Shown: piece by piece, positions 17,353 to 57,022 of the stretch
Position numbering within the stretch: position 1 is the stretch's first letter
How the letters are laid out: the number at the start of each line of letters is the position of its first letter
IMG/VR virus record: IMGVR_UViG_2526164633_000022
Span: 1 to 63,168 of that record
Origin: a virus
Lineage: Duplodnaviria; Heunggongvirae; Uroviricota; Caudoviricetes
Reading direction: 5' to 3' (one strand)
Length of the DNA stretch: 63,168 bases
Notes under the pieces: generated by a model
What the model was told of the DNA's origin: nothing
What the model saw: only the letters and a program-made list of their open reading frames with translations
The model's database searches: none
Position numbers and translations under genes: made by a program

Positions 17353-17402
17353 TAGATTGCTCTAATCTGGAGTCACCTGGCGTTTTCAGTTTGAGGTCGG
17401 AG

Positions 17403-17648
17403 ATGCAATCTGATTTTTTACAGTTAGCGATCGCTTTTGCAGGATATGTTTGTATTGGCTTCTGTGTATACATGATCAGCCGAAAAATGCTTGTCGATAT
17501 CGACCGCAAAGAACAAGCAGAGGAGATCTTAGTATGGATTTTCTTTGGCGCGGTCTGGCCATTAGGGATCATGTTTGCTGCAACATTTCTTCTGATGTGG
17601 ATATTCACCCTTCCAGGTGATTTCTATAGAAAAAAAGCCAGACATTGA
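17403..17648 (+). CDS. Small two-helix membrane protein
   Basis: Start at MQSDFLQ with GAGGT RBS (track ORF 17322..17648); two hydrophobic helices. Confidence 0.45.
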   Translation: MQSDFLQLAIAFAGYVCIGFCVYMISRKMLVDIDRKEQAEEILVWIFFGAVWPLGIMFAATFLLMWIFTLPGDFYRKKARH

Positions 17649-17771
17649 TACAATCGTTGCGGGTGCTTGAGGCTATCTGCTTCAGGCATTACCCGAAAAG
17701 CAGATAGAAGAAAGCCCCAGATAACATTACGCGTCCTGCAAGACGCTTAACATTAATCTGAGGCCATATCT

Positions 17772-17978
17772 ATGCTTAGCATACGTAGATTAGCCTCTTA
17801 CCGACCAAAAGGTCAAGGAGAAGCAGGCTATGAAGCAGCAAAAAGCGATATTAATCGCTCTGATCGTCATCTGTTTAACCGTCATTGTGACGGCACTGGT
17901 AACGAGGAAAGACCTCTGCGAGGTACGAATCCGAACCGGCCAGACGGAGGTCACTGTCTTCACAGCCTACGAATCTGA
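17772..17978 (+). CDS. mok-like overlapping reading frame of hok locus
   Basis: 68-codon frame overlapping hok, as in hok/mok/sok loci. Confidence 0.35.
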   Translation: MLSIRRLASYRPKGQGEAGYEAAKSDINRSDRHLFNRHCDGTGNEERPLRGTNPNRPDGGHCLHSLRI

Positions 17979-17985
17979 AAGGTAA
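17830..17985 (+). CDS. hok: Hok/Gef family type I toxin (51 aa)
   Basis: Own translation MKQQKAILIALIVICLTVIVTALVTRKDLCEVRIRTGQTEVTVFTAYESER; near-identical to recalled Gef/HokC core LVTRKDLCEV.IRTGQTEV.VFTAYES; below 60-aa track cutoff. Confidence 0.85.
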   Translation: MKQQKAILIALIVICLTVIVTALVTRKDLCEVRIRTGQTEVTVFTAYESER

Positions 17986-18061
17986 GAGACCTGGCGGGGA
18001 GAGATCCTCGCCACTCTTCGTGTGTCAGGTATCCTCAATGCACCCTTTCCTCTCCAAATAA

Positions 18062-18087
18062 AAAAGCTCCCGAAGGAGCTTTAAAAT
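18062..18087. terminator. Hairpin terminator between hok and convergent tail gene
   Basis: AGCTCC-CGAA-GGAGCT flanked by A-run and T-rich stretch. Confidence 0.5.
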
Positions 18088-18101
18088 ACAAGGGATGACT
18101 C

Positions 18102-23554: not shown

Positions 23555-23640
23555 GGCGTGAAACCGTGGGAATTTCAGTCTGAAATTTTTCATGAATATC
23601 TATATATATCATATATTTATACATGAAATAGACGCGGGAC
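23555..23640. other. parS-like partition site
   Basis: Downstream of parB: heptamers GTGAAAC, ATTTCAG, TGAAATT, ATGAAAT around AT-rich core TATATATATCATATATTTATAC (IHF-site-like). Confidence 0.45.
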
Positions 23641-23685
23641 ATTTTAGACAGGGGAGGGGGCTAAAGCCGCCTCCCACCAGCGGGA

Positions 23686-24651
23686 TTATTCCCCAGCAGA
23701 CATTTTCCCAATGATTTTTTTTATTGCTTCGTCAATTTCAGTTTGCACTTCAGACGGGAGTCTGGAGAACTCGTAGGCGACAACCCGTTTTTTCGGATCG
23801 GACTTCTTTCGGGCATATTGGCGACGGTCAGAGAAGTCTCGCAGCTTCTCAACCACCACAGATTTAACCGGCGCGGGCTTCAGGCTTTTGCTTTCCGCTT
23901 TGAAGATAGCCAGTATCTTCGCTTTATCCTCTTTCGCGCCCTCAGTCTCTGCAATTCGTTCGCGCACCGTATCAACCAGCTCTTCAATCGGCACGCTTTT
24001 AGCGTTAGCATCCTCGGCGATCTGGAGCAGTAACTGGTAATCTGGAAGGGCGAGATCGCTGGCTACGGGGAAGACAGCAATCATCTCATCCGGCACCGCG
24101 GCAGCCTGGAAAGCTCGCGTCACTTTAGCCTTTGAGATGTTCTCAGCTCGGGCGATCTCTTCTTTGGTCATATTCTTACCGTACATAACCTCGAAGCGTT
24201 TACCCAGCTCGCGCAGAGTGTGTTCGCGGGCTGTCTGGATATCAATGGCCAGCTGGCGGGCATCCGCCAGGCTGATCTCATCTTTCGTCACCAGAATCTC
24301 AAATTTCGTTTCATTGAAGATACACGCAGCACGGCGACGCGATCCGTCCAATACCTCAATGCGCTCCCCAACCATACGACCGATAGCCGGGAAGAACTGT
24401 TGCAATTTAATGGTGCGGGAAATATCGCTTACCGACTCAGGGGTGAGCAGAGACTGATCGCGGCCGTTAACTGCCGGGTCAACGAACGTGCGCGACTCAA
24501 TCTCACCACTCAGCACGACGGTAAGCAAGAATTTAGCCTGGCGGCCAGATTTTAGGGTAAAGGTTTTGGTGCCTTCACTGCCTTCAAGCATGCGAGCAAA
24601 CTCGGAGCTATTCTTGCCCAGCACTCGTCCACGGGAAACTATTTTTTTCAT
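23686..24651 (-). CDS. parB: Partition protein ParB
   Basis: 321 aa; overlaps parA stop by 4 nt; ParB-like region ...ILVTKDEISLADARQLAIDIQTAREH... Confidence 0.85.
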   Translation of the reverse strand: MKKIVSRGRVLGKNSSEFARMLEGSEGTKTFTLKSGRQAKFLLTVVLSGEIESRTFVDPAVNGRDQSLLTPESVSDISRTIKLQQFFPAIGRMVGERIEVLDGSRRRAACIFNETKFEILVTKDEISLADARQLAIDIQTAREHTLRELGKRFEVMYGKNMTKEEIARAENISKAKVTRAFQAAAVPDEMIAVFPVASDLALPDYQLLLQIAEDANAKSVPIEELVDTVRERIAETEGAKEDKAKILAIFKAESKSLKPAPVKSVVVEKLRDFSDRRQYARKKSDPKKRVVAYEFSRLPSEVQTEIDEAIKKIIGKMSAGE

Positions 24652-25859
24652 GCCGCCTCACCCCTAACAAACTCAATTCGATCAAACACAGCCTTAGTGA
24701 AACGCTCGGCCTCGGTTCGTGCCTTCTTCAGCGCCTCTGCACTGCCTGGATACGATTGCGGGTTGGCACTGATTACGGTGTCGAAAGACTCGCCGCATCG
24801 CTCAAAGCCATCCAGACGAGGCAGAGAAGAGTCCAGAATGTTGCTGGCGTAAACCTCACGCGCAAGGCTGTGTGATGTCTCGTGATCGCGCTTGCCGGTC
24901 ATCTTCGACATAAAACCAATGCTGGCGCTCAAACGCGGTTCTACGCCTTCCTCCTCCAGTTGCTCCAGCATTTCTGGCAGACGGGTGAGATATTTCAGTG
25001 TTGAGTGGAAGTCAACCTGGGCTGGTGGGGTAGGGGTAAGCAGCAAATCGCTGGCCGCCAGACCGTTGAGCAGGAACGGATCCAGGTGTGGACCGGTATC
25101 AATAAAGATAAAGTCATAATCATCCGCAACACGATCAATGATATTGCGTCGAAGGATTTCGTACTGATTTTGTCCGGGAAGATGCTCTTCAACCAGCTCT
25201 TTCCATTGGCTGGCAACAAAGCCATCGTCGATAGAGGCTGGAATCACGTCTACGCCAGGAACGATGGTCGGACGAATCACCTCTTTGCGTAGCGTCTCCG
25301 CGTCCAGGTCGTTCAGCATCGCCTGCGCGGCGGTTTCCAGGATGGAACCAATACTGTGAGTATGGTCGAGGAACATTGTGCTGGATGCCTGAGGGTCAAG
25401 GTCAATTACCAGAATGCGCAGATCGTGACGCAGTAAATCCTGATGCACACGCAGAGCGTGCGCCAACGTGACTGTGGAAACCGTTTTGGATACGCCACCC
25501 TTCAGGTTTACGACAAAAATAACGTAAGGCGATTTGTGAATGTCGCGATATTTGGGGATCTTACGGTGGGCATAGATATCAATGACGTTCTGGATGGTCA
25601 GCGCGTACTGTTCAACGTTACCGACCTGTTTCTTGTTGAACTGGTACCCATCATCTTCCATCTCTTTGATGGCCTGCTCCACAATGCGGCGGCTCAGCTT
25701 CGGCAACTTTGCCACAGCGTTACGAGTGAACGTCTGATAATACTCGGTCTGATTGAACTCTTTGCGCTGATCTTCAATATCCTGACTCATGGCCTTAAGT
25801 AATGCGCTTGCACGAAGAGCTATGGTGCCGACACCGCCGTAATCGCGTTTCATCATCAT
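24648..25859 (-). CDS. parA: Partition ATPase ParA (type Ia)
   Basis: 403 aa; deviant Walker A NLKGGVSKT; extensive similarity to recalled P1 ParA (…ILVIDLDPQ…, …LPRLDGFERCGESFDTVISANP…). Confidence 0.9.
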   Translation of the reverse strand: MMMKRDYGGVGTIALRASALLKAMSQDIEDQRKEFNQTEYYQTFTRNAVAKLPKLSRRIVEQAIKEMEDDGYQFNKKQVGNVEQYALTIQNVIDIYAHRKIPKYRDIHKSPYVIFVVNLKGGVSKTVSTVTLAHALRVHQDLLRHDLRILVIDLDPQASSTMFLDHTHSIGSILETAAQAMLNDLDAETLRKEVIRPTIVPGVDVIPASIDDGFVASQWKELVEEHLPGQNQYEILRRNIIDRVADDYDFIFIDTGPHLDPFLLNGLAASDLLLTPTPPAQVDFHSTLKYLTRLPEMLEQLEEEGVEPRLSASIGFMSKMTGKRDHETSHSLAREVYASNILDSSLPRLDGFERCGESFDTVISANPQSYPGSAEALKKARTEAERFTKAVFDRIEFVRGEAA

Positions 25860-25964
25860 CTCCTTATCATTTCGTATGAGTGAATTGTACGTTTGATTCT
25901 GCTACGTGCAACTTTTTTTGATTCGTGCGTCAATTATTGCACGTAAAGAAATGGCGATGAGGCT

Positions 25965-26255
25965 ATTAGATGTGTGCTGGAGGGATAATGCAGGACCAGA
26001 ATGTGCGATAGAGGGAAGTCGCATTGAATTATGTGCTGTGGAGGGATCGCTGGTATCAAATATGTGTGCTGGAGGGAAAGACAGAGAATTACATGTGCAC
26101 TGGAGGGAAAAACGGATGGACAGATGTGTGCTGGAGGGAAAGTCTGAGCAAACTGCGGGGCGTCCCCCTCCAGCGCACATCAAAAACGGGAAATTGGACA
26201 AGCCTTCCCGGCAGCACACATTTTTTGAATGCAGCTGCCCTCCAGCACACACTTA
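25965..26255. repeat. incA-like iteron array
   Basis: About 8-9 copies of ~19-bp unit GATGTGTGCTGGAGGGAAA in both orientations downstream of repA. Confidence 0.8.
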
Positions 26256-53211: not shown

Positions 53212-53463
53212 TTGTCGCTGGTGGTAACGATGGGAAAAATAACTTTTGTAGTCGAATTTGAGGATGGCAAAGAGCCACCTGTTAGCGCCAATCTTGATGT
53301 TGCTGGTGGCAGGCTTGTTTCGGTTCTATTTGGTGACTACCGAGATGATTTCTTCCAACCAGAAGAAGTTGATGTGGTGCGAGAGGCATTAAACGAGTTA
53401 AGTGTTGATAACGATGATGCTCATGCGGAAATCATCCAAAAAATGGAACTGCTAACTCACTAA
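53212..53463 (+). CDS. Small acidic hypothetical protein
   Basis: 83-aa ORF. Confidence 0.4.
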   Translation: MSLVVTMGKITFVVEFEDGKEPPVSANLDVAGGRLVSVLFGDYRDDFFQPEEVDVVREALNELSVDNDDAHAEIIQKMELLTH

Positions 53464-56420: not shown

Positions 56421-56642
56421 ATGCAATCCATTAACTTCCGTACCGCGCGCGGCAACCTTTCTGAAGTGCTCAACAATGTTGAAGCCGGGGAAGAGGTTGA
56501 AATCACTCGCAGAGGCCGTGAGCCAGCAGTAATTGTCAGCAAGGCTACTTTCGAAGCCTACAAAAAAGCGGCGCTGGATGCTGAATTTGCATCCCTGTTT
56601 GACACCCTGGACTCCACCAACAAGGAACTGGTTAACCGATAA
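56421..56642 (+). CDS. phd: Phd antitoxin
   Basis: 73 aa [49 protein letters not shown]...; TAATG overlap with doc. Confidence 0.9.
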
Positions 56643-57022
56643 TGAGGCATATATCACCGGAAGAACTTATTGCGCTTCATGATGCGAATATAAACCGCTA
56701 CGGCGGCCTGCCGGGAATGTCAGATCCGGGTAGGGCAGAGGCCATTATCGGGAGAGTTCAGGCCAGAGTTGCCTACGAAGATATCACCGACCTTTTCGAA
56801 GTCTCCGCCACCTACCTGGTGGCTACTGCGAGAGGGCATATATTCAATGATGCCAATAAGCGTACCGCGCTAAACAGTGCGCTGCTATTTCTACGCCGTA
56901 ACGGGGTGCAGGTATTTGATTCACCAGAACTGGCAGACCTTACCGTAGGGGCTGCGACCGGAGAGATATCTGTATCTTCTGTCGCCGACACGTTACGTAG
57001 ATTGTATGGTTCTGCGGAGTAG
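56642..57022 (+). CDS. doc: Doc toxin (Fic-fold kinase)
   Basis: 126 aa; motif [11 protein letters not shown]. Confidence 0.9.

What the first reader, a model, noticed from the sequence alone, without database searches (positions are those of the whole stretch)
17650..18090. Hok/Gef-type type I toxin locus hidden below the ORF-track size cutoff
A 51-codon ORF (17830-17985) encodes MKQQKAILIALIVICLTVIVTALVTRKDLCEVRIRTGQTEVTVFTAYESER, a near-perfect match to the Hok/Gef membrane toxin family, with an overlapping mok-like frame (17772-17978) and a hairpin at 18062-18087. It lies between the lytic replicon and the sheath operon, giving the element a second addiction module in addition to phd-doc. 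I do not recall a hok locus at this position in P1, but that recollection is uncertain.
Basis: partly seen in the sequence, partly recalled or inferred. Interest (0 to 1): 0.6.

Follow-up and report, generated by a model that had tools for sequence, protein, structure and literature searches.

The report
Hok/Sok toxin-antitoxin locus in P1-like plasmid
The small ORF is a complete, apparently intact hok/mok/sok "host-killing" toxin–antisense RNA cassette that replaces three non-essential genes of reference phage P1, but the same cassette is already annotated (as HokD) at this spot in hundreds of sequenced P1-like plasmids, so it is real but ordinary.

Summary
ORF 17830-17985 (+) encodes a 51-aa peptide that matches Pfam HOK_GEF over its full length (76 bits, E=1e-21). 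The leader at 17661-17835 matches Rfam RF01794 (115 bits; gathering score 59).

All RNA elements of the plasmid R1 hok/sok paradigm are present: hok promoter, tac, ucb, mok SD and frame, dcb, Sok promoter and hairpin on the minus strand, hok SD, a 3' GC hairpin, and fbi. Folding reproduces the known switch. The full-length mRNA is locked by tac:fbi pairing, and the 3'-trimmed form can open. An R1-type control behaves the same way.

The 693-bp block 17367-18059 (an 81-aa membrane ORF plus hok/sok) replaces rlfA-rlfB-pmgF of reference P1. The hairpin near 18063-18082 is P1 backbone and looks like a terminator only on the minus strand.

It is not new. The exact protein is named HokD on about 1000 public contigs. 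The intact arrangement occurs in 216 PLSDB plasmids, against about 100 with the P1 arrangement, and the substitution has been reported before. Function as a second addiction module is inferred, not shown.

Side findings: an IS186-family element sits in the same 3'-UTR hairpin in 196 plasmids, and 125 plasmids carry a hok-less "orphan sok" allele.

The parts
17627..17654 (+). hok (mok-hok) promoter: -35-like TAGAAA at 17627-17632, 16-nt spacer, extended -10 TGATACAAT at 17646-17654. It overlaps the stop codon of the 81-aa ORF.
   Evidence: Promoter scan found it with a TG before the -10. The -10 aligns with TAGAAT of Rac/933W and TATGAT of the R1-type locus, 6 nt upstream of the conserved 5' end.
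17661..18050 (+). Full-length mok-hok mRNA. The 5' end at G17661 is inferred from homology. The 3' end is uncertain: just after fbi, or at the backbone hairpin near 18085.
   Evidence: The Rfam model starts at 17661. The 5' end GGGUGCUUGAGG aligns with R1-type GGCGCUUGAGG. MFE is -164.7 kcal/mol with z=-9.9.
17661..17672 (+). tac (translational activator) element, GGGTGCTTGAGG.
   Evidence: It pairs with 18033-18045 in the full-length MFE structure. It pairs locally with 17680-17694 (the metastable hairpin) once the 3' end is removed. It covaries with fbi across clades.
17712..17718 (+). ucb / anti-SD box, AAGCCCC. It pairs with the mok SD in the closed form and can pair with tac in the open form.
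   Evidence: AGCCCC is invariant in alignment A1. It is paired with the SD region in the MFE. The enforced tac:ucb conformer lies 1.8 kcal/mol above the MFE in the truncated RNA.
17707..17780 (-). Sok antisense RNA gene, about 70 nt. The 5' tail is complementary to the mok SD and AUG, followed by a long hairpin and then GGGGCUUUCUUCU. Both ends are approximate.
   Evidence: The fold gives -32.4 kcal/mol, z=-5.5. It is collinear with the annotated sokW of 933W and lies inside the Rfam RF01794 match.
17787..17816 (-). Sok promoter: -35 TTGACC at 17816-17811, 18-nt spacer, -10 TAATCT at 17792-17787.
   Evidence: Read from the sequence. It aligns with the R1-type TTGCGC-17-TATCCT. The generic promoter scan did not call it, because the -10 matches only 3 of 6 consensus positions.
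17760..17763 (+). mok Shine-Dalgarno GAGG, 8 nt upstream of the mok ATG.
   Evidence: Conserved in all five aligned loci.
17772..17978 (+). mok reading frame, 68 aa. It overlaps hok and provides translational coupling.
   Evidence: ORF list. Annotated as mok or mokW in Rac and 933W at the collinear position. The exact product is seen on about 1000 contigs. No Pfam family matches it.
17793..17797 (+). dcb, GCCTC. It is the alternative partner of the mok SD (GAGGC) in the open form and overlaps the Sok promoter spacer.
   Evidence: It forms a helix in the Rfam consensus alignment. TAGCCTCTTAC is invariant in A1. The enforced open conformer was tested.
17815..17820 (+). hok Shine-Dalgarno AAGGAG.
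   Evidence: CAAGGAGAAG is invariant in A1.
17830..17985 (+). hok toxin gene: 51 aa, with an N-terminal transmembrane segment and the conserved TRKDLCEVRIRTGQTEV motif.
   Evidence: Pfam PF01848 at 76.3 bits. PHROG 251. 42% identical to R1 Hok. The exact sequence is named HokD in public databases.
17993..18012 (+). GC-rich 3'-UTR hairpin GGCGGGGAGAGATCCTCGCC. It is the presumed stop for 3' exonucleolytic trimming, and so the 3' end of the active truncated mRNA. Positions 17998-18007 are the IS186-family target site in related plasmids.
   Evidence: Folds. Collinear with the R1-type GGCGGGCGCAGGCCCGCC. IS junctions are shown.
18033..18045 (+). fbi (fold-back inhibitory) element, CCTCAATGCACCC.
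   Evidence: It pairs with tac in the MFE of the full-length RNA. It sits at a conserved position, +44 to +55 after the hok stop, with compensatory changes across clades.
18063..18082 (.). Backbone hairpin shared with P1, the terminator of the bplB-side operon. It is only a possible, weak 3' boundary for hok transcripts.
   Evidence: Terminator-like on the minus strand only. Identical in P1 at about 53415-53434.
17403..17648 (+). 81-aa ORF with two hydrophobic segments. It is part of the same 693-bp replacement block; its function is unknown.
   Evidence: RefSeq WP_001369095.1. PHROG 3772, unknown function. No Pfam, NCBIfam or PADLOC hit.
17367..18059 (.). The 693-bp block with no homology to reference P1. 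It replaces P1 51586-53411 (rlfA, rlfB, pmgF).
   Evidence: blastn of the window against P1. The junction sequences are shown.

Best explanation
This is a complete hok/mok/sok type I toxin-antitoxin cassette of the prophage-borne hokD/hokW clade. It is carried by a P1-like phage-plasmid in the variable slot between the lytic replicon (repL) and the tail/baseplate operon (bplB).

Proposed mechanism, by homology to plasmid R1 hok/sok:
1. A promoter with an extended -10 produces a stable mRNA of about 390-430 nt. Its 5' tac element pairs with the 3' fbi element, and the mok SD is sequestered by the ucb box. This form is neither translated nor bound by Sok.
2. Slow 3' trimming back to the GC hairpin (17993-18012) removes fbi. 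The RNA can then refold into tac:ucb and SD:dcb pairings, exposing the mok start region.
3. In plasmid-bearing cells the short-lived Sok RNA pairs with the mok start region, and the duplex is destroyed. Sok comes from the minus strand, from promoter TTGACC-18-TAATCT.
4. In cells that lose the plasmid, Sok decays first. mok is then translated, hok is translated by coupling, and the 51-aa Hok peptide depolarises the inner membrane and kills the cell.

The element therefore most likely has a second post-segregational killing module alongside phd-doc.

What is shown here: the sequence elements, their homology, the predicted structures and the energetic switch. What is inferred: transcription, processing, toxicity and any stabilisation of the plasmid.
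For: - Hok peptide: Pfam HOK_GEF at 76.3 bits and PHROG 251 at 108.8 bits.
- Leader and antisense region: Rfam RF01794 at 114.9 bits against a gathering score of 59, full model.
- The mok frame and both SD sequences are present.
- The Sok hairpin folds with z=-5.5 and is collinear with the annotated sokW of 933W.
- tac:fbi pairing appears in the MFE structure of the full-length RNA, z=-9.9.
- Energetic switch: the closed form is favoured over the open form by 14.1 kcal/mol in the full-length RNA, but by only 1.8 kcal/mol after 3' truncation. The R1-type control gives 15.7 and 3.5 kcal/mol.
- tac/fbi covariation at a conserved position across clades: GGGUGC/GCACCC against GGGCGC/GCGCCC, and GAGG/CCUC against GAGA/UCUC.
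- The cassette is 87-91% identical in nucleotides to the Rac-type and 933W hok/sok loci, from the -10 region through fbi.
- The identical arrangement is kept at 99% identity or more in 216 plasmids and 6 phage records.
- The mechanism of the family is described in PMC9841398.
- phd-doc is present in the same window.
Against: - There is no experimental evidence for this copy. Transcription, 3' processing, toxicity and stabilisation are all untested.
- The Sok -10 (TAATCT) matches only 3 of 6 consensus positions, and the generic promoter scan missed it.
- The cassette did not bring its own terminator. The Rac homologue has GCGGGTTTTTT directly after fbi. Here the only hairpin downstream is the backbone one, which looks like a terminator only in the opposite orientation. 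The 3' end of the full-length mRNA, and hence its stability, are therefore uncertain.
- ViennaRNA's MFE for the truncated RNA is still the closed or metastable form. The open form is merely close in energy.
- 196 related plasmids carry an IS186-family insertion between hok and fbi, and 125 have lost hok altogether. The module is evidently dispensable and often disabled.
Confidence: 0.9

Rival explanations
1. The cassette is a functional hok/sok, but its selected role is defence or competition rather than plasmid stabilisation. One version is abortive infection against other phages, where host transcription shut-off depletes Sok. Another is competition between incompatible P1-like elements.
For: The closest relatives all sit in prophages (Rac-type, 933W/Stx phages, other lambdoids), where segregational loss is not an issue. 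PHROGs files the family under 'moron, auxiliary metabolic gene and host takeover'. The element already has phd-doc. R1 hok/sok has been reported to exclude phage T4 (Pecota & Wood 1996; from my own knowledge, not checked here). The orphan-sok allele in 125 plasmids would make sense as an anti-addiction device.
Against: There is no hit in PADLOC-DB. Nothing in the sequence distinguishes this role from post-segregational killing, and the two roles are not mutually exclusive.
Confidence: 0.2
2. The cassette is a structurally intact but functionally silent passenger. Hok would not be expressed at lethal levels from this context, as with many chromosomal hok loci, and the cassette persists only by hitch-hiking on a successful P1-like lineage.
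For: The native terminator was lost at the recombination junction. Nearly half of the hok-bearing plasmids carry an IS186-family insertion that cuts fbi off from the mRNA, and a further allele has lost hok. The nucleotide identity among P1-like copies (99% or more) is too high to show purifying selection on its own.
Against: Every regulatory element is intact, and the in-silico switch behaves like the R1-type control. The IS insertions occurred at least twice at one site (both orientations), which fits a cost imposed by an active toxin as well as it fits neutrality. A single chromosomal copy of R1 hok with its native promoter is lethal without Sok (PMC9841398).
Confidence: 0.15
3. The ORF is a chance open frame and the similarity is spurious.
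For: It has only 51 codons, and many short ORFs exist in the region.
Against: Pfam E=1e-21, Rfam E=5e-27, PHROG E=2e-31, and conserved flanking RNA elements.
Confidence: 0.01

Closest known systems
hokW/mokW/sokW of Stx phage 933W, and the hok/mok loci of Rac-type and other lambdoid prophages
   Same: 87-91% nucleotide identity over the whole cassette, window 17649/17658 to 18045. The order of elements is the same: -10, tac, ucb, sok, mok, hok, GC hairpin, fbi. The Hok proteins are about 88-94% identical.
   Different: The host replicon is a P1-like plasmid prophage rather than an integrated lambdoid prophage. Sequence upstream of the -10 and downstream of fbi is unrelated. The Rac copy has its own GC-hairpin/T-run terminator after fbi, which this copy lacks. 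The Sok promoter spacer is 18 nt here and in Rac, against 17 nt in 933W.
hok/sok (parB) of plasmid R1 and IncFII relatives, the experimentally characterised paradigm
   Same: All functional elements can be aligned: tac GGCGCUUGAGG, AGCCCC (ucb), GAGGC (mok SD), TAGCCTCTTACC (dcb and Sok -10 region), CAAGGAGAAG (hok SD), a GC hairpin and fbi. The predicted closed-to-open energetic switch is the same. The mechanism is described in PMC9841398.
   Different: Only 42% amino-acid identity to R1 Hok. The leader lacks the roughly 16-nt insertion of R1 and has a longer Sok-target hairpin. tac/fbi carry compensatory differences. This copy belongs to a different clade, prophage-type rather than conjugative-plasmid-type.
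hokD (relF) of E. coli K-12, the name RefSeq gives this protein
   Same: The peptide is about 90% identical. The HokD-type sequence MKQQKAMLIALIVICLTVIVTALVTRKDLCEVRIRTGQTEVAVFTAYEPEE occurs in chromosomal loci L015-L021.
   Different: Some chromosomal copies encoding that protein (L020, L021) have no recognisable tac/leader upstream. This agrees with the published view, from my own knowledge (Pedersen & Gerdes 1999), that K-12 hokD lacks mok/sok regulation. The window copy has the full regulatory set. The best NCBIfam HMM hit, NF007279 (a Hok-family subfamily model), scores 50.2 bits, below its cutoff of 73. The 'HokD' label therefore reflects similarity, not an equivalog call.
hokC/gef of E. 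coli K-12 with IS186 downstream
   Same: In 196 P1-like plasmids a 1338-bp IS186B/IS421 element sits in the 3'-UTR GC hairpin, between hok and fbi. This is the same kind of disruption described for K-12 gef (PMC3562002) and seen here in chromosomal locus L027.
   Different: The window itself has the uninterrupted site.
phd-doc of phage P1 (type II addiction module)
   Same: It is present in the same element, at window 56421-57019, with 100% and 97.6% identity to P1 Phd and Doc. The presumed biological outcome is the same: killing of plasmid-free segregants.
   Different: It uses a protein antitoxin and a protein toxin that acts on translation (stated from my own knowledge, not checked here). 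There is no RNA antisense and no membrane toxin, and the sequences are unrelated.

Membership tests
Hok/Gef toxin family (Pfam PF01848) | Peptide of about 50 aa that matches the HOK_GEF profile above the gathering score | tested here: met
   76.3 bits against a cutoff of 22, E=1.3e-21, profile positions 2-42 of 42. PHROG 251 at 108.8 bits.
Hok/Gef toxin family (Pfam PF01848) | N-terminal hydrophobic segment followed by the conserved TRK-LCE-R-R core | tested here: met
   LIALIVICLTVIVTALV followed by TRKDLCEVRIRTGQTEV. The same core is present in all relatives listed and in R1 Hok.
hok/mok/sok type I toxin-antitoxin locus (R1 parB paradigm) | Overlapping upstream mok frame with its own SD, ending within or near hok | tested here: met
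   GAGG at 17760-17763, ATG at 17772, stop at 17978. It overlaps hok at 17830-17985 in another frame and is collinear with the annotated mok/mokW.
hok/mok/sok type I toxin-antitoxin locus (R1 parB paradigm) | Cis-encoded antisense Sok gene with its own promoter, complementary to the mok translation-initiation region | tested here: met
   Sequence-level test only. The minus strand carries TTGACC-18-TAATCT, then about 70 nt covering the mok SD and AUG, then a hairpin (z=-5.5). Rfam RF01794 scores 114.9 bits. The region is homologous to the annotated sokW. Transcription itself cannot be tested here, and the generic promoter scan did not call this promoter.
hok/mok/sok type I toxin-antitoxin locus (R1 parB paradigm) | Long-range 5'-3' tac:fbi pairing that closes the full-length mRNA | tested here: met
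   Nucleotides 17661-17672 pair with 18033-18045 in the MFE. Compensatory changes occur across clades at a conserved distance after the stop codon.
hok/mok/sok type I toxin-antitoxin locus (R1 parB paradigm) | Alternative pairings: SD:ucb in the closed form; tac:ucb and SD:dcb in the open form after 3' truncation | tested here: met
   The SD is paired with GCCCC in the closed MFE. The enforced open conformer costs 14.1 kcal/mol in the full-length RNA and 1.8 kcal/mol in the truncated RNA. The R1-type control gives 15.7 and 3.5. These are thermodynamic predictions only.
hok/mok/sok type I toxin-antitoxin locus (R1 parB paradigm) | Stable 3' hairpin at which exonucleolytic processing stops; processing to an active truncated mRNA | tested here: inconclusive
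   The GC hairpin at 17993-18012 is present and collinear with the R1-type one. Processing cannot be tested in silico. The native terminator is absent.
hok/mok/sok type I toxin-antitoxin locus (R1 parB paradigm) | Hok toxicity, Sok-dependent repression, and post-segregational killing | not testable with these tools
   Requires genetics: a Sok promoter knock-out, plasmid-loss assays, and a rifampicin ghost-cell assay.
Reference phage P1 gene order (NC_005856) | rlfA-rlfB-pmgF between repL and bplB | tested here: not met
   Homology to P1 stops at window 17366 (P1 51585) and resumes at 18060 (P1 53412). The 1826 bp of P1 in between are replaced by 693 bp. The window is a P1-like variant, not P1 itself, at this locus.
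HokD equivalog (RefSeq name) | Scores above the curated cutoff of an NCBIfam Hok model | tested here: not met
   The best hits are NF007279 at 50.2 bits (cutoff 73) and HokA NF007290 at 37.5 bits (cutoff 89). The name HokD in public records must come from sequence-similarity rules.

The most novel reading that the evidence does not exclude
The repL-bplB slot of P1-like phage-plasmids may be a site of addiction and anti-addiction conflict rather than a passive cargo site. Four states coexist in sequenced plasmids: intact hok/sok (216 records), hok/sok with an IS186-family element inserted at one 10-bp site in both orientations (196), a hok-less allele that keeps the hok promoter, leader and sok (125), and the P1-type rlfA-rlfB-pmgF (about 100). 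If orphan Sok protects hosts from killing when a hok-positive P1-like plasmid is displaced, or if the recurrent IS insertion is selected to disarm or re-tune the toxin, this would be a natural example of type I antitoxin-only 'anti-addiction' in phage-plasmids.
Probability: 0.1. Interest if true: 0.5.

Novelty: already known. Interest (0 to 1): 0.15.

Why it matters
Its main value is for annotation and interpretation. Most sequenced P1-like phage-plasmids differ from the textbook P1 map at this spot, and they carry, or used to carry, a type I toxin-antitoxin module in addition to phd-doc.

This is relevant to the persistence of P1-like plasmids that spread resistance genes. It also matters for curing or displacement strategies, and for use of P1-derived vectors.

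It does not reveal a new mechanism. The family, its RNA switch, and even this exact sequence are already in databases and have been noted in the literature.

Tried and rejected
- Other Rfam hits in the region are all below their gathering scores and explained by the hairpins, so I rejected them as chance. They are CRISPR-DR46 at 18052-18087 (25.9 bits against 50), ceN48, sbrA, and a minus-strand 'sok' hit at 17570-17718 (21 bits).
- The hairpin at 18062-18087 as hok's own terminator: rejected. It is P1 backbone and terminator-like only on the minus strand.
- A whole-region RNAduplex of upstream against downstream flanks, with shuffles, was uninformative: long spurious duplexes and weak z-scores. 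I replaced it with a targeted tac-13-mer search. Its per-locus z-scores are modest for the window clade (-1.9), so the argument rests on conserved position and compensatory changes rather than on those z-scores.
- Unconstrained MFE folding of the truncated mRNA did not produce the published open form. I therefore compared enforced conformers and used an R1-type control.
- PADLOC gave no hit for Hok, the 81-aa ORF, or the 198-aa ORF of the third allele. Pfam and NCBIfam gave nothing for mok, the 81-aa ORF, or the 198/210-aa ORFs.
- In the literature search I found no paper that experimentally characterises hok/sok in a P1-like element. [quoted passage not shown]
- I did not fetch the rest of the P1 reference genome. 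The absence of hok elsewhere in P1 therefore rests on prior knowledge, not on a test here.

Full report
**Observation**

The overlapping 68-codon frame at 17772-17978 is also there.

- The peptide matches Pfam HOK_GEF (PF01848) over the whole profile: 76.3 bits, gathering score 22, E=1.3e-21.
- It matches PHROG 251 'MokW-like host killing' at 108.8 bits.
- Segment 17661-17835 matches the full Rfam model RF01794 ('sok') at 114.9 bits, gathering score 59.
- The Rfam hit is on the hok-sense strand, and the model consensus ends on the hok AUG. The model therefore describes the leader that contains the Sok target. Sok itself is encoded on the opposite strand.

**Anatomy**

All positions are read from the sequence and from the alignment with four other loci: a second P1-like allele, Rac-type hok, 933W hokW/sokW, and an R1-type IncFII locus.

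| Element | Window coordinates | Notes |
|---|---|---|
| hok promoter | 17627-17654 | TAGAAA-16-TGATACAAT, extended -10 |
| hok mRNA 5' end | G17661 | 6 nt after the -10, as in the R1-type locus |
| tac | 17661-17672 | GGGTGCTTGAGG |
| ucb / anti-SD | 17712-17718 | AAGCCCC |
| mok SD | 17760-17763 | GAGG |
| mok frame | 17772-17978 | ATG at 17772 |
| dcb | 17793-17797 | GCCTC |
| hok SD | 17815-17820 | AAGGAG |
| hok | 17830-17985 | 51 aa |
| GC hairpin | 17993-18012 | presumed 3' trimming stop |
| fbi | 18033-18045 | CCTCAATGCACCC |
| Sok promoter (minus strand) | 17816-17787 | TTGACC (17816-17811), 18 nt, TAATCT (17792-17787) |
| Sok RNA (minus strand) | about 17780 to 17707 | start and end approximate |

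The predicted Sok RNA has a 5' tail complementary to the mok SD and AUG. A long hairpin follows, then GGGGCUUUCUUCU. It folds at -32.4 kcal/mol, z=-5.5. It is collinear with the sokW feature annotated in phage 933W.

**RNA switch**

- The 430-nt transcript 17661-18090 folds at -164.7 kcal/mol, z=-9.9. In the MFE structure nucleotides 17661-17672 pair with 18033-18045 (tac:fbi), and the mok SD pairs with the GCCCC box.
- When the 3' end is cut back to the GC hairpin, the 5' end folds locally on 17680-17694. This is the metastable hairpin described for R1.
- I enforced the published 'open' conformer (tac:ucb plus SD:dcb). It costs 14.1 kcal/mol in the full-length RNA and 1.8 kcal/mol in the truncated RNA. 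The R1-type control gives 15.7 and 3.5 kcal/mol.
- The tac and fbi elements lie at conserved positions (fbi at +44 to +55 after the stop codon). They show compensatory changes in 46 loci fetched from other genomes. GGGUGC/GCACCC occurs in this clade and in hokC, against GGGCGC/GCGCCC in Photorhabdus, Pantoea and the R1-type locus. GAGG/CCUC contrasts with GAGA/UCUC in Photorhabdus.
- The mechanism these elements serve is summarised in PMC9841398.

**Context**

The window is a P1-like phage-plasmid. C4 RNA and its targets, kilA, repL, bplB, pmgG, gene 21 and the sheath gene are collinear with P1 at 95-98% identity. phd-doc lies at 56421-57019.

- Homology to reference P1 stops at 17366 (P1 51585). 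That point is inside the C1 operator Orlf/Op55, of which the window keeps ATTGCTCTAAT.
- Homology resumes at 18060 (P1 53412).
- So 693 bp replace the 1826 bp that carry rlfA, rlfB and pmgF. All three genes were scored non-essential for P1 lytic growth in a CRISPRi screen (PMC10695390).
- The replacement block holds an 81-aa ORF with two hydrophobic segments (17403-17648; PHROG 3772, unknown function) and the hok/sok cassette.
- Homology of the cassette to prophage hok loci runs from about 17649 to 18045, that is from the -10 to fbi.
- The Rac homologue has a canonical terminator right after fbi, and this copy does not.

**Is it known?**

Yes.

- The exact 51-aa protein is in public collections, named 'type I toxin-antitoxin system toxin HokD (plasmid)', on about 1000 contigs.
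- The 901-bp stretch from repL to bplB is 99% identical or better in 6 phage records. One of them, MH422554, labels the gene MokW.
- The same stretch is intact in 216 PLSDB plasmids, where RefSeq annotates hokD.
- The P1-type rlfA-rlfB-pmgF segment is found in only 101 plasmids. The hok allele is therefore the commoner state, and the textbook P1 map is the minority.
- Venturini et al. [quoted passage not shown] Another survey lists this slot as variable region 5 (PMC9603915). [quoted passage not shown]
- I found no experimental study of this particular copy.

**Interpretation**

The most likely reading is a functional hok/mok/sok post-segregational killing module of the prophage hokD/hokW clade. 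It would give the plasmid prophage a second addiction system.

- I put 0.9 on the locus being a complete hok/sok. My confidence that plasmid stabilisation is its selected role is lower, about 0.6.
- A defence or competition role, and a silent-passenger status, remain possible. Neither can be separated from addiction in silico.

**Side observations**

- In 34 + 162 PLSDB records a 1338-bp IS186B/IS421 element sits in the GC hairpin of the hok 3' UTR. The 10-bp duplication GGAGAGATCC corresponds to window 17998-18007.
- The two counts correspond to the two orientations, so at least two insertion events occurred.
- The insertion separates fbi from the mRNA. K-12 gef/hokC shows the same kind of disruption (PMC3562002; locus L027). 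It is also the IS186B insertion described in pSvP1.
- A third allele occurs in RCS47, SJ46, pF1140-3 and, in total, 125 PLSDB records.
- This allele keeps the hok promoter, the leader and the Sok-coding sequence up to window 17793. From that point a 198-210-aa minus-strand ORF of unknown function replaces hok.
- It is in effect an orphan sok, and it shows that this allele derives from a hok-bearing ancestor.

**Verdict**

It is an already-annotated member of a very well-understood family, so its interest is low.

Noticed in passing
window 17998-18007 (site); L007 2869-4206 (the IS): A 1338-bp IS186B/IS421 element is inserted at this exact 10-bp site (direct repeat GGAGAGATCC) in the GC hairpin of the hok 3' UTR. 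It occurs in 34 PLSDB records in one orientation and 162 in the other. That is nearly half of all hok-bearing P1-like plasmids. The insertion separates fbi from hok, as described for K-12 gef/hokC. The window itself is uninterrupted.
   Followed up: partly
L011 1461-2470; L010 (RCS47); L012 (SJ46); corresponds to window 17600-17793: There is a third allele of the repL-bplB slot, found in 125 PLSDB records. It keeps the 81-aa ORF, the hok promoter, the leader and the Sok-coding sequence up to the Sok -10. From there hok is replaced by a 198-210-aa minus-strand ORF (PHROG 7522; no Pfam or PADLOC hit). A possible new -35 (TTGCTC) sits 18 nt upstream of the retained TAATCT. This is a candidate 'orphan sok'.
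   Followed up: partly
window 17356-17372: The left recombination junction with P1 falls inside the C1 repressor operator Orlf/Op55. The window reads ATTGCTCTAATctggag against ATTGCTCTAATTATAAC in P1. Only the first 11 of 17 operator bases are retained, so C1 control of whatever is transcribed downstream of repL may be altered.
   Followed up: no
window 17403-17648 (+): An 81-aa ORF with two hydrophobic segments (RefSeq WP_001369095.1, PHROG 3772, unknown function). It is part of the same replacement block and is kept in both the hok and the orphan-sok alleles. Its stop codon overlaps the TG of the hok extended -10. It has no Pfam, NCBIfam or PADLOC match.
   Followed up: partly
window 23590-25965; ORFs 23686-24651 (-) and 24648-25859 (-): The partition genes have clear ParB and ParA Pfam domains but no megablast match to the parB/parA of reference P1. 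The flanks match P1 at 97%. The element therefore carries a divergent par allele, possibly P7-like; this was not checked.
   Followed up: partly
window 33591-33648 (+): Rfam reports a partial tRNA match (41.4 bits, model positions 8-63), but ARAGORN calls no tRNA anywhere in the window. It may be a degenerate or unusual version of one of the P1 tRNA genes.
   Followed up: no
L013 (Kluyvera cryocrescens NBRC 102467 contig); L022 and L033 (contigs of 275-431 bp): An identical Hok with the same P1-backbone junction occurs in a Kluyvera contig, so a P1-like element exists outside Escherichia and Salmonella. Very short contigs labelled Acinetobacter idrijaensis and Xanthomonas pisi carry a 98% identical hok; these are probably assembly contaminants.
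   Followed up: no
L020, L021 (E. coli chromosomal loci): Two chromosomal loci encode the HokD-type protein but have no recognisable tac/leader upstream. Other loci with the same protein (L015, L016, L018) have it. The RefSeq name 'HokD' therefore covers both regulated and unregulated copies.
   Followed up: no
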